Shown in pieces: positions 8,343 to 11,503 of a stretch of 64,000 nt of DNA; position 1 is the first letter of the stretch; every line of letters begins with the position of its first letter. This stretch comes from Spirochaetia bacterium (GTDB lineage: Bacteria; Spirochaetota; Spirochaetia; G963692905). The notes under the pieces are model-generated. The model did no database searches, was not told the DNA's origin, and worked only from the letters and a program-made list of their open reading frames with translations. The stretch covers positions 2,069,587-2,133,586 of the forward strand of contig OZ253446.1 in the NCBI GenBank assembly GCA_965261245.1. Direction: 5' to 3'. The position numbers and the translations under genes are program-made.

Positions 8343-9554
8343 TTACTGGCATATCCTATCAGCAGTATCGGACGCCCAGGCGCATATCAAACTACCATCA
8401 CAATCGCTACTAGAACTACAAGCACTACCCGCACTGCCATCGGACTGGGTGCATACAAAATCACCCGACACAACCGCGCATATCAAACTACCGGCACAAT
8501 GCCTATCAGAGCGGCAAACACTACCCGCACTGCCATCACTACATCGATTGGCGTTGCATTCCAGCGAGCCGGTGCAGTGGGTATCATCATTGCAAACACT
8601 ACCCGCACTGCCATCTGACCGGGTGCATATTCCATCACCGAACGCACGGACGCATACCAAACTACCCGCACAATCGCTATCAGCACGGCAAGCACTACCC
8701 GCACTGCCATCGGAGCATATCCTATTACCCGATACACTGACGCATGTCAAACTACCCGCACAATGACTATCAAACCTGCAAGCACTACCAGCATTGCCAT
8801 CTGACTGGGAGCATGTCCCATTACCCGATACCCAGGCGCATATCAAACTACCCGCACAATCGCTATCAACATCGCAATAACTACCCGCACAATCATCACT
8901 ATCGCGGCAAGCACTACCCGCACTGCCATCGGAGCATATCCCATTACCCGATACAATGTCGCATATCAAACTACCCGCACAACTATCAGCCCAACAAGCA
9001 CTACCGGCACTGCCATCTGACTGGGAGCATACAAAATTACCCGATACCAGGGCGCATATCAAACTACCCGCACAATGGCTACTAGAACTACAAGCACTAC
9101 CCGCACTGCCATCGGACTGGGTGCATATAGAACTACCGGACACACTGGCGCATACCAAACTACCCGCACAATCGCTATCACCACGGCAGGCACTACCCGC
9201 ACTGCCATCTGACTGGGTGCATATAGAACTACCGGACACATAGGTACATATCAACCTACCATCACAATCGCTACTAGAACTACAAGCACTACCCGCACTG
9301 CCATCGGACTGGGAGCATATCCTATTACCCGATACCAGGGCGCATATCAAACTACCCGCACAATGGCTACTAGAACTACAAGCACTACCCGCACTGCCAT
9401 CTGACTGGGAGCATGCAAAATTACCCGATACCAGGGCACATAGCAACCTACCATCACAATCGTTATCAGCACGGCATTGACTACCAACCCCCGCCCCTGT
9501 AAATAACACGACCGCAAACACGGCAACCGCTATATAAATTATTTTACCTTTCAT
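8343..9554 (-). CDS. Secreted Cys-rich tandem-repeat protein (about 12 units of ~31 aa)
   Basis: Signal peptide MKGKIIYIAVAVFAVVLFTGAGVGS; unit C-x-x-D-x-x-C-x-G-x-L-x-C-A-x-V-S-G-x-x-x-C-x-Q-S-D-G-S-A-G-S-A-C. Confidence 0.55.
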   Translation of the reverse strand: MKGKIIYIAVAVFAVVLFTGAGVGSQCRADNDCDGRLLCALVSGNFACSQSDGSAGSACSSSSHCAGSLICALVSGNRICSQSDGSAGSACSSSSDCDGRLICTYVSGSSICTQSDGSAGSACRGDSDCAGSLVCASVSGSSICTQSDGSAGSACSSSSHCAGSLICALVSGNFVCSQSDGSAGSACWADSCAGSLICDIVSGNGICSDGSAGSACRDSDDCAGSYCDVDSDCAGSLICAWVSGNGTCSQSDGNAGSACRFDSHCAGSLTCVSVSGNRICSDGSAGSACRADSDCAGSLVCVRAFGDGICTRSDGSAGSVCNDDTHCTGSLECNANRCSDGSAGSVCRSDRHCAGSLICAVVSGDFVCTQSDGSAGSACSSSSDCDGSLICAWASDTADRICQ

Positions 9555-9578
9555 TACTCGGCTACCCTGTTGCTGTTA

Positions 9579-11294
9579 CTACTGACATATCCCATTACCA
9601 TTATCATCACCAATACAAAGCAAATCACCGGCGCAATGGCTACTACCCCCGCACACACTACCCGCACTGCCATCGGCATGCGTGCATATACCATCACCCT
9701 GCACAAGAGCGCATATCAAATTATCCGCACAATCATCATCTATAAAGCAAGCACTACCCGCACTGCCATCGGACTGGGCGCATACACCATCTCTCTGCAC
9801 AAGAGCGCATATCATACTACCCGCACAATGGGTATCGAGTAAGCATGGATTACCTGCACTGCCGTCTGACTGGGCGCATATACCATCAGCCTGAATCGCC
9901 ACACATATCAAACTACCCGCACAATCATCATCTATAAAACAGGCACTACCCGCACTGCCATCGGACTGGACGCATGCACCATCACCCTGCACAAGAGCGC
10001 ATATTAAATTGTCATCACAATCACTATCAGCACCGCACGGACTACCTGCACTGCCGGACTGGGTGCATATACCATCGCCCTGAACCACCACACATATCAA
10101 ACTACCCGCACAATCATCATCTATAAAACAGGCACTACCCGCACTGCCATCGGACTGGGCGCATGTTCCGCTATCTTGCACTATCGCACATATCAAATTG
10201 CCATCGCAATCGCTATCATTACTGCAAGCACTACCCGCATTGTTTGCGCCTTGTGTACTCTCTACGCTACTCTCTGTACTACTCTCTACGCTGCTCTCTG
10301 TAGATTGACCGCATGAAGCATTACCCTGCTTAATAATACAATCTAAACCATCAGCACAATGTATATCATACATGCAAACACTGCCCGCACTGCCATCGGA
10401 TTGACTGCATACATAACTATTTTGCGATAGCGCACATATCAAATTGTTATTACAATCCCTATCAAACCCGCAAGCACTACCCGCGCCGCCATCGGACTGG
10501 GCGCATACCTGACTGCCAAGCACATTGGCACATATCAAATTTCCATTACAACCTAAACTAGCACCGCACGGACTACCCGCGCCACCATCGGACTGGGCGC
10601 ATATTCCGTTTCCTTGCACAACCGCACATATCAATTTCCCACCGCATTGGGCATCGAGTAGGCACGGACTACCCGCACTGCCATCGGACTGGGCGCATAT
10701 TCCATAATTATCAATGTTGGCACATATCAAATTGCCATTACAATGGGTATCGAATAAGCACGCACTACCCGCACTGCCATCGGGCTGGGTGCATACCTGA
10801 CTACCTTGCATATAAACACATATCAAATTGCCATTACAATGGGTGTCGAATATGCACGGGCTACCCGCACTGCCATCGGACTGGGCGCATATTCCATAAT
10901 TATCAATGTTGGCACATATCAATTTTCCACCGCATTGGGTATCGAGTAAGCACGGACTACCCGCACTGCCATCGGATTGGGTGCATATTCCGCTACCTGC
11001 ACTGTTGGCACATATCAAATTGCCATTACATTGGGTATCAGCACTGCAAGCACTACCCGCACTGCCATCGGACTGGGTGCATATCAAATTACCTTGCACC
11101 ACCGCACATATCGAATTACCATTACAATCAAAATCACTCATACATATTCTATATGAATCAAGAGAACCGCCAGCAATGCCCCGTTCATAGCCATTTATCG
11201 CGATACTAATAAATATAGCAAATATCAAAATTGCCGACAGCACCAATAACACTGGTACCCCTACAAAAATCATTATTTTGTGTTTTGTTTTCAT
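9579..11294 (-). CDS. Secreted/membrane-anchored Cys-rich tandem-repeat protein, paralog of 8343-9554
   Basis: N-terminal hydrophobic segment; repeated C-x-x-D-x-x-C-x-G-x-L-I-C-A....QSDGSAGS-x-C units; Ser/Glu-rich linker in the middle. Confidence 0.55.
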   Translation of the reverse strand: MKTKHKIMIFVGVPVLLVLSAILIFAIFISIAINGYERGIAGGSLDSYRICMSDFDCNGNSICAVVQGNLICTQSDGSAGSACSADTQCNGNLICANSAGSGICTQSDGSAGSPCLLDTQCGGKLICANIDNYGICAQSDGSAGSPCIFDTHCNGNLICVYMQGSQVCTQPDGSAGSACLFDTHCNGNLICANIDNYGICAQSDGSAGSPCLLDAQCGGKLICAVVQGNGICAQSDGGAGSPCGASLGCNGNLICANVLGSQVCAQSDGGAGSACGFDRDCNNNLICALSQNSYVCSQSDGSAGSVCMYDIHCADGLDCIIKQGNASCGQSTESSVESSTESSVESTQGANNAGSACSNDSDCDGNLICAIVQDSGTCAQSDGSAGSACFIDDDCAGSLICVVVQGDGICTQSGSAGSPCGADSDCDDNLICALVQGDGACVQSDGSAGSACFIDDDCAGSLICVAIQADGICAQSDGSAGNPCLLDTHCAGSMICALVQRDGVCAQSDGSAGSACFIDDDCADNLICALVQGDGICTHADGSAGSVCGGSSHCAGDLLCIGDDNGNGICQ

Positions 11295-11503
11295 ACCAAA
11301 CTATACTTCCGCCCTGCCTTACTGTCCTGCGCCGTCAACGCTGTAAAAACCTTGTGTATCCGCCAACGCCAACCCGGCAACCCATACGGCATGCGGGTAA
11401 TTCTGTTTTGCTGCTCTGCTGCAACACTCCCCGCCCCTGCGTTTGTAAATAGTACGACCACTATTACTGCAAGCATTACCGCATACATCACTTTTAATTT
11501 CAT
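11291..11503 (-). CDS. Small signal-peptide ORF (70 aa), possibly a truncated N-terminal remnant of the Cys-rich family
   Basis: N-terminus MKLKVMYAVMLAVIVVVLFTNAGAGS resembles the signal peptide of 8343-9554; no Cys repeats follow. Confidence 0.25.
   Translation of the reverse strand: MKLKVMYAVMLAVIVVVLFTNAGAGSVAAEQQNRITRMPYGLPGWRWRIHKVFTALTAQDSKAGRKYSLV

What the first reader, a model, noticed from the sequence alone, without database searches (positions are those of the whole stretch)
8343..11503. Operon-like pair of secreted proteins made almost entirely of a 4-Cys ~31-aa repeat, plus an upstream signal-peptide remnant
The genes at 8343-9554 and 9579-11294 consist of about 12 and 16 tandem copies of C..D..C.G.L.C.....G...C.QSDGSAGS.C, with highly repetitive DNA and lower GC than the core genome. 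The 70-aa ORF at 11291-11503 looks like a decayed N-terminus of the same family. The module resembles the Cys-rich stalk of the giant lipoproteins, so this may be a reservoir or a stand-alone disulfide-rich fibre.
Basis: seen in the sequence. Interest (0 to 1): 0.6.

Follow-up and report, generated by a model that had tools for sequence, protein, structure and literature searches.

The report
Head-less cysteine-finger rod proteins, tandem pair
Two neighbouring genes encode exported proteins built only from 12 and 16 copies of a 32-residue, four-cysteine hairpin "finger", the same module that forms the stalks of this bacterium's large surface lipoproteins; they are best read as free-standing disulfide-braced rods carried on a strain-variable genomic island, with no tested function.

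Summary
Minus-strand genes A (8343-9554, 403 aa, 50 Cys) and B (9579-11294, 571 aa, 64 Cys) consist of 12 and 16 tandem 32-aa units, CxxDxDCxGxLICAxVxGxGICxQSDGSAGSA, with a 96-nt DNA period. The minus-strand frame is coding. AlphaFold2 models each unit confidently as a short turn plus a β-hairpin, and successive units form a continuous array. The unit scores above threshold for Pfam Dickkopf_N and DUF7107, but only through partial matches spanning about 1.5 units. Profile and fold comparisons with real Dickkopf domains are insignificant, so the resemblance is at the level of one hairpin finger. The same module builds the stalks of three lipoproteins in this window. A and B are closer to rare small stalk-only proteins (42-52 %) than to those stalks (33-39 %), and share no DNA similarity with them, so a recombination reservoir is unsupported. 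The unit is very rare: 47 proteins among 1.84 billion. The genes lie in a low-GC3 island beside tRNA-Met. A close relative carries different genes there. Another strain has an almost identical island apart from one 84-bp unit indel. ORF70 shares only the family's signal peptide. Verdict: a new architectural variant of an uncharacterised Cys-rich module, function inferred as an envelope rod or fibre.

The parts
9579..11294 (-). Gene B, 571 aa: N-terminal signal anchor plus 16 four-Cys units in two blocks
   Evidence: ORF; 64 Cys at spacing 6,6,9,11; Pfam Dickkopf_N 53.7 bits and DUF7107 41.7 bits; identical protein on metagenome contig L001
11196..11294 (-). B residues 1-33: MKTKHK followed by a 27-residue apolar run, probably an uncleaved signal anchor
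   Evidence: Apolar run at residues 7-33, mean Kyte-Doolittle 2.97, too long for a typical cleaved h-region; no lipobox; first Cys at residue 51. Read by inspection; no predictor was run.
10281..11144 (-). B rod block 1: nine 32-aa units (residues 51-338)
   Evidence: Unit dissection; AF2 of residues 83-210 gives pLDDT 92.4, pTM 0.77
10227..10310 (-). B Ser/Glu-rich linker (GQSTESSVESSTESSVESTQGANNAGSA) between the two rod blocks; likely flexible hinge
   Evidence: 29-residue Cys-Cys gap; 12/24-nt tandem repeat at 10256-10302
9582..10226 (-). B rod block 2: seven units (residues 357-571), ending ...GICQ
8343..9554 (-). Gene A, 403 aa: cleavable-type signal peptide plus 12 units (some shortened to 26-30 aa), ending ...RICQ
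   Evidence: ORF; 50 Cys; Pfam DUF7107 30.1 bits, Dickkopf_N 25.4 bits; AF2 of mature A gives pLDDT 83.4 and 12 hairpins; 51 % identical to B
9480..9554 (-). A signal peptide (MKGK plus 21-residue apolar run ...GAGVGS|QC); Q at position -1 means no lipobox
   Evidence: near-identical N-terminus in paralogue P0005
8877..8909 (-). Irregular half unit in A (CRDSDDCAGSY), predicted hinge or low-confidence point
   Evidence: Cys spacing 6,5; AF2 pLDDT below 50 at mature residues 187-195
8592..8593 (-). Site of the 84-bp (28-aa unit CSSHSHCNYSCAHSDNGQLCTDGSAGSV) presence/absence polymorphism relative to L001
   Evidence: the extra unit is flanked by DGSAGSVC on both sides
11291..11503 (-). ORF70: family-type signal peptide plus a 44-aa basic, Trp-rich tail without Cys; its stop overlaps B's ATG
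   Evidence: 100 % conserved in L001
11520..11999 (-). 159-aa GIY-YIG-like protein, GC 0.36, first gene of the co-oriented string
   Evidence: NCBIfam UvrC N-terminal region E 7.8e-5; PDB UvrC GIY-YIG domain E 0.06; orphan family
7744..8247 (-). 167-aa coiled-coil protein with no export signal, low GC3; probably starts at the internal ATG at 8154
   Evidence: promoter-like site at 8214-8186
8184..11700 (.). Block almost identical to metagenome contig L001: 2 substitutions plus one 84-bp indel in about 3.5 kb, against 4-6 % divergence in the flanks
7420..7494 (-). tRNA-Met (CAT) at the edge of the island
12271..13402 (-). IS element (rve-family transposase 12325-13323), present here and absent at this site in L001
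47164..50133 (+). Paralogous lipoprotein: lipobox, 21-unit stalk of the same module (long and short units alternating) and a β-propeller-like head
   Evidence: homologue P0003 has a weak PSII_BNR hit
26074..28716 (-). Paralogous lipoprotein: 10-unit stalk plus, by 56 % identity to P0006, TSP3 and GLUG head domains
43591..46041 (+). Paralogous lipoprotein: 10-unit stalk plus, by 54 % identity to P0006, TSP3 and GLUG head domains

Best explanation
A and B are exported, head-less versions of the cysteine-finger stalk used by this organism's surface lipoproteins. Shown: each protein is an N-terminal hydrophobic export signal followed only by tandem 32-aa, four-Cys units. AF2 folds each unit confidently into a short turn plus a β-hairpin, and neighbouring units pack in a defined orientation. 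The genes are coding, are tandem duplicates and evolve by gain and loss of whole units. They sit in a compositionally foreign, strain-variable island. Inferred: after Sec export the four Cys of each unit form two disulfides (C1-C3 and C2-C4, by analogy with the first finger of the Dickkopf/colipase fold). These clamp the hairpin, so 12 or 16 units form a stiff rod with one hinge each. B stays tethered to the cytoplasmic membrane by its uncleaved 27-residue signal anchor, while A is released after signal-peptidase I cleavage. The rods then act as structural envelope or surface fibres: a spacer, coat or strut, possibly an adhesive or decoy surface. The strain-to-strain turnover fits an exposed, selected surface component. 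ORF70, the GIY-YIG-like gene and possibly the coiled-coil gene are co-located, but their part in the function is unknown.
For: Architecture and repeat regularity. Coding frame: third-position excess and dN/dS of 0.5. Export signals. AF2: four units at pLDDT 92.4, pTM 0.77; mature A at pLDDT 83.4 with 12 hairpins and one low-confidence hinge. The same module separates the lipid anchor from the globular head in three lipoproteins of the window and in homologues P0003, P0006, P0007, P0010, P0017-19 and P0024, which is a spacer role by position. Stalk-only relatives are mostly lipoproteins, so they are envelope-anchored (P0025, P0028, P0033, P0023, L008 ORF 3976-4937). The best structural matches are Dickkopf fingers. 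A and B share the 3' end and downstream flank. Unit indel between strains. Island properties. Different gene content at the same locus in a close relative. Homologues sit next to an integrase module or a restriction-modification system.
Against: There is no experimental or expression evidence. Disulfide connectivity could not be read because model coordinates are not returned. No Dsb-type oxidase is seen in the window and the organism is unidentified. If it lacks oxidative folding the Cys might serve another role. pTM for full-length A is only 0.44, so long-range stiffness is not established. The signal-anchor versus cleaved status of B, and SPase I cleavage of A, were judged by inspection only. 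'Structural fibre' is assigned from architecture, not from any functional signature. The AF2 alignments were shallow and consisted largely of paralogous repeats.
Confidence: 0.55

Rival explanations
1. Polyprotein precursors: each 32-aa unit is a small disulfide-rich peptide (knottin- or inhibitor-like toxin, protease inhibitor or antimicrobial) released by cleavage in the invariant QSDGSAGS linker, giving 12-16 peptides per translation product.
For: Very uniform unit and linker. Sub-threshold resemblance of the unit to a squash trypsin inhibitor, a carboxypeptidase inhibitor and a spider knottin. A partial WAP hit. Strain-variable, horizontally mobile genes.
Confidence: 0.1
2. Silent cassette reservoir: A and B donate repeat units by gene conversion to diversify the stalks of the large lipoproteins.
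For: Shared module and Cys spacing with the lipoprotein stalks; repeat arrays are recombinogenic, as the unit indel shows.
Against: No blastn-detectable DNA similarity between A/B and any other stalk in the window. Only 33-39 % protein identity. GC3 is 0.40 against 0.56-0.64. A and B have only 32-aa long units, whereas the stalks alternate 33- and 25-26-aa units. A and B have start codons and export signals, and dN/dS is 0.5.
Confidence: 0.04
3. Host mimicry: bacterial Dickkopf-like proteins that bind an animal LRP5/6- or Kremen-type receptor.
For: Pfam Dickkopf_N above threshold. The best PDB fold hits are Dkk4 and Dkk1.
Confidence: 0.02
4. Extracytoplasmic metal- or redox-buffering proteins: the Cys (and the Asp of CxxDxDC) bind metal ions or act as a thiol sink and are not structural disulfides.
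For: 11-12 % Cys and abundant Asp, Ser and Gly. If the organism is an anaerobe, stable disulfides are less expected.
Against: No CxxC or CxC metal-binding spacing. The Cys pattern matches disulfide-clamped hairpins of Dickkopf or knottin type. AF2 is confident without ligands. The same units act as stalks in the lipoproteins.
Confidence: 0.05
5. Not genes: repeat DNA whose long minus-strand ORFs arise by chance, or as the antisense of something else.
For: Repeats create ORFs in several frames.
Against: The longest plus-strand start-to-stop ORFs are 113 aa or less; the longest stop-to-stop frame is 215 aa. Third-position excess and dN/dS of 0.5. Signal peptides, Pfam hits and protein-level homologues with diverged DNA. 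In-frame unit indel.
Confidence: 0.01

Closest known systems
Dickkopf cysteine-rich domains (Pfam PF04706 Dickkopf_N; colipase-fold CRD2, e.g. PDB 3s2k chain C)
Pfam DUF7107 (PF23416), a cysteine-rich domain of unknown function
   Same: A, B and most homologues score above its gathering threshold. It appears to model the same finger motif.
   Different: The 48-position model spans about 1.5 units here, so the repeat register differs. No function or literature exists for it, so membership explains nothing mechanistically.
Cys-rich stalks of the same lineage's surface lipoproteins (window 47164-50133, 26074-28716, 43591-46041; P0003, P0006, P0017-19, P0024)
   Same: Same module and Cys spacing, same lineage, N-terminal position just after the export signal.
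   Different: Those have a lipobox, alternate long (33 aa) and short (25-26 aa) units, use PGTGAGGS-type linkers, have high GC3 and carry GLUG or β-propeller heads. A and B lack both lipobox and head, use only long units with QSDGSAGS linkers, and are 33-39 % identical to them.
Small stalk-only proteins of related organisms (P0025, P0026, P0028, P0033, P0023, P0009, P0045; L008 ORF 3976-4937)
   Same: Closest relatives at 42-52 % identity. They share QSDGSAGS or DGSAGS linkers, a C-terminal ...CQ, the stalk-only architecture and in part the same signal-peptide type.
   Different: Most are lipoproteins (e.g. LAGC lipobox) of 76-460 aa with 2-10 units, and end with HCDYxC-type short units. A and B are longer, more uniform and not lipidated.
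Tandem EGF-like or Cys-rich arrays of eukaryotic and giant-virus surface proteins (Pfs25, NELL2, uromodulin; pithovirus and cedratvirus transmembrane proteins)
   Same: Rod-like strings of small disulfide-braced β-hairpin modules that project from a membrane; they appear as weak Foldseek hits.
   Different: Those have six or more Cys per roughly 40-aa module and a different topology. TM-scores are 0.31 or less and rmsd exceeds 13 Å. This is an analogy of design, not homology.

Membership tests
Dickkopf_N (PF04706) | Whole-protein HMM score at or above the Pfam gathering threshold (25 bits) | tested here: met
   B 53.7 bits over 9 stretches; A 25.4 bits over 3 stretches. The score is the sum of many weak partial matches.
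Dickkopf_N (PF04706) | One domain of about 50 aa carrying 10 conserved Cys (five disulfides) | tested here: not met
   Units are 32 aa with 4 Cys. The best stretch, B residues 51-98 against profile positions 2-48, covers 1.5 units and 7 Cys. The 10-Cys definition is from general knowledge of Dickkopf proteins.
Dickkopf_N (PF04706) | Significant sequence or profile similarity to animal Dickkopf CRDs | tested here: not met
   Unit profile against PDB: DKK1 E 0.72.
Dickkopf / colipase fold | Structural superposition on a solved Dickkopf CRD | tested here: inconclusive
Dickkopf family | Binding of LRP5/6 or Kremen and Wnt antagonism | not testable with these tools
   Needs binding assays.
DUF7107 (PF23416) | Whole-protein HMM score at or above the gathering threshold (24.6 bits) | tested here: met
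   B 41.7 bits, A 30.1 bits; also P0003, P0006, P0008 and P0009.
WAP four-disulfide core (PF00095) | About 40-50-aa domain with 8 Cys matched over its length | tested here: not met
   24.3 bits, but the best stretch is 16 residues (B 354-369 against profile positions 14-29 of 41).
Bacterial lipoprotein (as in the stalked paralogues) | Lipobox [LVI][ASTVI][GAS]-C at the end of the signal peptide | tested here: not met
   A has ...GVGSQ-C, with Q at position -1. In B the first Cys is residue 51, 17 residues after the apolar run. The paralogues have IAGC, WACG, IACP or ITGC. Judged by inspection; the lipobox consensus is from general knowledge.
Sec-exported protein | Positively charged n-region followed by a hydrophobic h-region at the N-terminus | tested here: met
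   A: MKGK plus a 21-residue apolar run. B: MKTKHK plus 27. ORF70: MKLK plus 16. No dedicated predictor was available.
Genomic island | Deviant base composition and codon usage | tested here: met
   GC 0.36-0.51 and GC3 0.36-0.41 for the GIY-YIG-like gene, B, A and the coiled-coil gene (ORF70 GC3 0.52), against GC3 0.67-0.75 in the flanking core genes.
Genomic island | Presence or absence polymorphism between close relatives, adjacent tRNA | tested here: met
   L008 has a GSDH 91-99 % identical but entirely different genes at the locus. tRNA-Met at 7420-7494.
Genomic island | Own integrase and flanking direct repeats | tested here: not met
   No integrase in the island. The adjacent IS transposase is absent in L001. 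Flanking direct repeats were not searched for.
GIY-YIG nuclease (neighbour gene 11520-11999) | Significant match to a GIY-YIG domain model | tested here: inconclusive
   NCBIfam UvrC N-terminal region E 7.8e-5 but far below cutoff. No Pfam hit. PDB UvrC GIY-YIG domain E 0.06. Motifs LYF...LYIGKA and E..FI..L.PE.N are visible by eye.

The most novel reading that the evidence does not exclude
A and B define an undescribed class of bacterial free-standing 'finger rods': uniform strings of a two-disulfide hairpin that self-stack into tens-of-nanometre struts. B would be membrane-tethered and A soluble, together forming an envelope or surface layer in a spirochaete-like bacterium. The whole cassette moves between co-existing strains by recombination, because the layer is a target of phage, predator or host recognition.
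Probability: 0.25. Interest if true: 0.6.

Novelty: new variant of a known kind. Interest (0 to 1): 0.42.

Why it matters
Disulfide-rich tandem-module rods are a hallmark of eukaryotic extracellular proteins and are rare in bacteria. Here a single hairpin finger is iterated up to 16 times, is modelled with high confidence, and has no solved structural counterpart. If the rods are real, they offer a minimal, designable stiff spacer module. They would also be a marker of oxidative protein folding in the envelope of a poorly known, probably spirochaetal, lineage. The locus also gives a clean natural example of whole-unit gain and loss, and possibly of a gene-specific sweep between strains. Function is untested and the module already has Pfam models, so this is an interesting variant and not a new principle.

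Tried and rejected
1. Genome-contig scan with B found nothing.
2. A second genome-contig scan with the flanking pyruvate kinase returned only 35-41 % hits from unrelated phyla. The organism could therefore not be named and synteny could not be examined in species representatives.
3. Metagenome-contig scan with B found nothing. With alignment A1 it found one false positive, a Gly/Ala-rich autotransporter-like ORF (L011).
4. Viral-contig scan found nothing. PHROGs found nothing for any island gene; PADLOC gave only one weak LmuB match for the coiled-coil gene (E 0.0025). A phage or defence origin is unsupported.
5. The afdb50 fold library was unavailable.
6. NCBIfam has no model for A, B or the lipoprotein stalks.
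7. Literature searches for DUF7107, PF04706 in bacteria, Dickkopf with spirochaetes or myxobacteria, and Treponema cysteine-rich repeat lipoproteins returned nothing relevant.
8. A third version of the island (P0013's 9.7-kb contig) could not be fetched.
9. Exact look-ups of A, P0005 and the pyruvate kinase found no record.
10. Model coordinates are not exposed, so S-S distances and rise per unit could not be measured.
11. Rejected readings: antisense artefact, recombination reservoir, true Dickkopf homologue, WAP domain.
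Full report
OBSERVATION

The two ORFs are present on the minus strand: A at 8343-9554 (403 aa) and B at 9579-11294 (571 aa).
- A has 50 Cys and B has 64, at a strictly repeating spacing of 6, 6, 9, 11.
- Aligning 23 full-length units gives the consensus CxxDxDCxGxLICAxVxGxGICxQSDGSAGSA. The four Cys are invariant, and L11 and the Q-S-D-G-x-A-G-S linker are at least 90 % conserved.
- Tandem Repeats Finder reports a 96-nt period with 192- and 288-nt higher-order periods.
- A has 12 units plus one half unit, and four units are shortened to 26-30 aa.
- B has 9 + 7 units separated by a Ser/Glu-rich linker (residues 329-356).
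- A and B are 51 % identical. They share their last codons and the downstream sequence GCAACAGGGTAGCCGAGTA, so they are tandem duplicates.

ARE THEY GENES?

Several lines say yes.
- Among 21 full 96-nt units, codon position 3 is the most variable (0.34 against 0.28 and 0.25). Nei-Gojobori dN/dS is about 0.5.
- Both proteins start with a basic n-region and a long apolar run.
- Both hit Pfam models above threshold.
- Homologues with diverged DNA keep the protein motif.
- The only length difference from another strain is an in-frame 84-bp unit.
- Plus-strand ORFs are short by-products of the repeat.

FOLD

AlphaFold2 was run on four units of B (residues 83-210), with a small alignment of in-register blocks from A, B and a paralogous stalk.
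- The model has mean pLDDT 92.4 and pTM 0.77. Each unit is a three-residue turn at D-x-x followed by a two-stranded hairpin. The third and fourth Cys sit opposite each other on the two strands.
- Mature A (378 aa) gives pLDDT 83.4 and 12 hairpins. One low-confidence stretch falls exactly at the irregular half unit.
- Coordinates are not returned, so disulfide pairing is an inference. I infer C1-C3 and C2-C4 by analogy with the first finger of Dickkopf CRD2, whose sequence [22 protein letters not shown] has the same spacing. That connectivity comes from my knowledge of DKK1, not from a tool.

COMPARISON WITH KNOWN DOMAINS

- Pfam: Dickkopf_N scores 53.7 bits for B and 25.4 for A (threshold 25). 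DUF7107 scores 41.7 and 30.1 (threshold 24.6). There is also a 16-residue WAP fragment.
- The Dickkopf score is spread over nine stretches. The best covers 1.5 units and 7 Cys, whereas a Dickkopf CRD has 10.
- A unit profile against all PDB sequences finds nothing significant. The best matches are a squash trypsin inhibitor (E 0.43), DKK1 (E 0.72) and a carboxypeptidase inhibitor (E 3).
- hhalign against human DKK1 CRD1 and CRD2 gives probabilities of 1.5 % and 4.4 %.
- Foldseek against PDB has no hit below 1e-3; the top hits are Dkk4 and Dkk1.
- The viral structure library gives only generic Cys-rich arrays of giant-virus membrane proteins, with TM-scores of 0.31 or less.
- Conclusion: the unit is one Dickkopf-like finger iterated many times. 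It is not a Dickkopf domain. DUF7107 membership is formally met but says nothing about function, and no literature exists for it.

RELATIVES

The word-indexed search found 10 proteins among 5.8 billion. The exhaustive profile search found 47 at E ≤ 1e-3 and 22 at E ≤ 1e-10 among 1.84 billion representatives. They fall into three groups.
1. Large lipoproteins with a lipobox, a long stalk of this module and a head. The head is either GLUG/TSP3 or a β-propeller-like repeat. Three of these are in the window itself: 47164-50133, 26074-28716 and 43591-46041. In them, 33-aa long units alternate with 25-26-aa short units.
2. Small stalk-only proteins, mostly lipoproteins, with the same DGSAGS linkers and C-terminal ...CQ (P0025, P0026, P0028, P0033, P0023, P0009, P0045). 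A and B are closest to this group (42-52 %) and more distant from their own genome's stalks (33-39 %).
3. Weak hits where only the finger motif CxxDSDCxxGLxC recurs in unrelated repeat proteins.

JGI metagenomes, viral contigs and GTDB species representatives contain no close relative.

RESERVOIR HYPOTHESIS

blastn with a 9-nt word finds no similarity between A/B DNA and the rest of the window. Codon usage differs: GC3 is 0.40 in A/B against 0.56-0.64 in the stalks. The unit types also differ. This reading is rejected.

ORF70

- Its first 26 residues align with the signal peptides of A and P0005 at 14/26 identity; 0 of 2000 shuffles reach the score.
- They also resemble the signal peptide of P0045, in which that peptide is directly followed by Cys units.
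- The remaining 44 residues are basic, Trp-rich and lack Cys. No frame shows a decayed unit.
- ORF70 is identical in L001 and was called as a gene there. Its TGA overlaps B's ATG.
- It therefore carries a family-type signal peptide, but it may be a live small secreted protein and not debris.

GENOMIC CONTEXT

- The GIY-YIG-like gene, ORF70, B and A are co-oriented with gaps of 16, -4 and 24 bp. The coiled-coil gene follows after 95 bp, with a promoter-like site of its own.
- Four of the five genes have GC3 of 0.36-0.41 (ORF70 0.52), against 0.67-0.75 in the flanking GSDH and pyruvate kinase genes.
- tRNA-Met lies at 7420-7494.
- An rve-family IS at about 12271-13402 is present here but absent in L001.
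- Contig L001 comes from metagenome ERZ26694059. It is 92-94 % identical to the window in the flanks, yet window 8184-11700 differs by only two substitutions and the 84-bp unit. At the flank rate, about 150 differences would be expected. This means either a recent recombinational transfer or sweep of exactly the ORF70-B-A segment, or a strain-mosaic assembly. Read-level data are needed to decide.
- Contig L008 is from the same sample. Its GSDH is 91-99 % identical, but the locus holds propeller lipoproteins and two different stalk-only genes, and none of the island genes.
- Other homologues sit next to a phage-type integrase with an AAA_25/DnaB_C-like module (P0004) or next to a restriction-modification pair (P0001).
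- The module is therefore typically encoded in accessory, mobile regions.

ORGANISM

The organism is not identified. Three hints point to a spirochaete: a LIC_12708-family protein at 19889-21091 (276 bits); a TP_0126-family gene beside P0001 in a related contig; and relaxed lipoboxes plus a FemAB-family gene.

MECHANISM

Shown: export signals, modular hairpin fold, the stalk role of the same module in paralogues, unit-wise evolution, island mobility.

Inferred: Sec export followed by oxidative folding into two disulfides per unit, giving stiff rods. B would be tethered by an uncleaved signal anchor and hinged at the Ser/Glu linker. A would be released after cleavage. Their role would be structural or surface-exposed.

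Confidence is about 0.75 for the molecular description and about 0.35 for the functional role; I give 0.55 overall.

NOVELTY AND SCORE

This is a new architectural variant (uniform, head-less, non-lipidated, 12-16 units) of a Cys-rich module that Pfam already models but nobody has characterised. Interest is 0.42. It is structurally unusual for bacteria and very rare, but no function or mechanism was demonstrated, and the basic idea of a disulfide-rich stalk module is not surprising.

Noticed in passing
window 8184-11700 versus L001 9595-13195: ORF70, B and A are almost identical between two strains (2 substitutions plus one 84-bp indel in about 3.5 kb), while the flanks differ by 4-6 %. One of the two substitutions is non-synonymous (A47V in A). 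This is either a gene-specific recombination or sweep, or a strain-mosaic metagenome assembly.
   Followed up: partly
L008 1-13503 (ena ERZ26694059 ctg58925): In a close relative (GSDH 91-99 % identical) the locus beside GSDH holds propeller-only lipoproteins, an apparently frameshifted stalk-only lipoprotein (3976-4937) and P0009. None of the window's island genes are there, so the locus is hypervariable.
   Followed up: partly
window 7420-7494 (-): tRNA-Met (CAT) lies between GSDH and the island. The longest GSDH ORF (start at 7450) overlaps the tRNA, so the real GSDH start is further downstream (390 aa was called in L001).
   Followed up: partly
window 12271-13402 and 55805-56848: Two different rve/rve_3-family IS transposases. 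They share only a 36-bp, 83 %-identical stretch (12271-12306 against 55759-55794). The first is absent at this site in L001.
   Followed up: partly
window 11520-11999 (-): A 159-aa orphan protein with GIY-YIG-like motifs (UvrC N-terminal region E 7.8e-5), 36 % GC, at the head of the co-oriented gene string. Only one cluster of three sequences exists in 5.8 billion proteins. Its 5' third is much more diverged from L001 than its 3' part.
   Followed up: partly
window 59-2230 (-) and 50222-52930 (+): Two further GLUG-head lipoproteins use a different Cys-rich stalk repeat (...Y.CENGTP......CQ.C.DGY....C) in place of the finger module. Stalk modules therefore appear interchangeable in front of the same head.
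   Followed up: no
window 7744-8247 (-): A coiled-coil protein with an internal duplication (…EEEKAQLKREIAALSVILESVQEAKKIF… / …EDKKEKAQLERRAIDAHMVILKSLPEAKKIL…), no export signal and low GC3. A promoter-like site at 8214-8186 suggests the true start is the ATG at 8154.
   Followed up: no
L009 2197-6957: Homologue P0004 (lipoprotein with stalk plus a 90-aa C-terminal domain) lies directly after a Phage_integrase gene, an AAA_25/DnaB_C-like gene and a 418-aa ORF. It looks like cargo of an integrative element.
   Followed up: no
protein P0045 (76 aa) and paralogue P0005 (365 aa, same genome as the window): P0045 is a miniature family member: an ORF70-like signal peptide (MKLKMIYAVLLAV...) followed by only two units. 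P0005 joins an A-type signal peptide and three units to an unrelated 250-aa C-terminal region.
   Followed up: no
C-termini of A, B, P0009, P0023, P0025, P0028, P0036 and L008 ORF 4260-4937: Stalk-only proteins end with the last Cys followed by a single Gln (...CQ). Some others end ...CR. This may be a conserved terminal cap or a sorting feature.
   Followed up: no
window 24736-26034 (+), within the GC dip at 23-26 kb: An FRG-domain plus TPR protein sits in a second low-GC stretch (0.39-0.50), next to one of the stalked lipoprotein genes. This may be another acquired segment.
   Followed up: no
window 17500-19254 (+): A single ORF combines a HisRS-like (HisZ-type) domain and HisG, a fused ATP phosphoribosyltransferase regulatory and catalytic protein. 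Part of it lies in a 43 % GC stretch.
   Followed up: no
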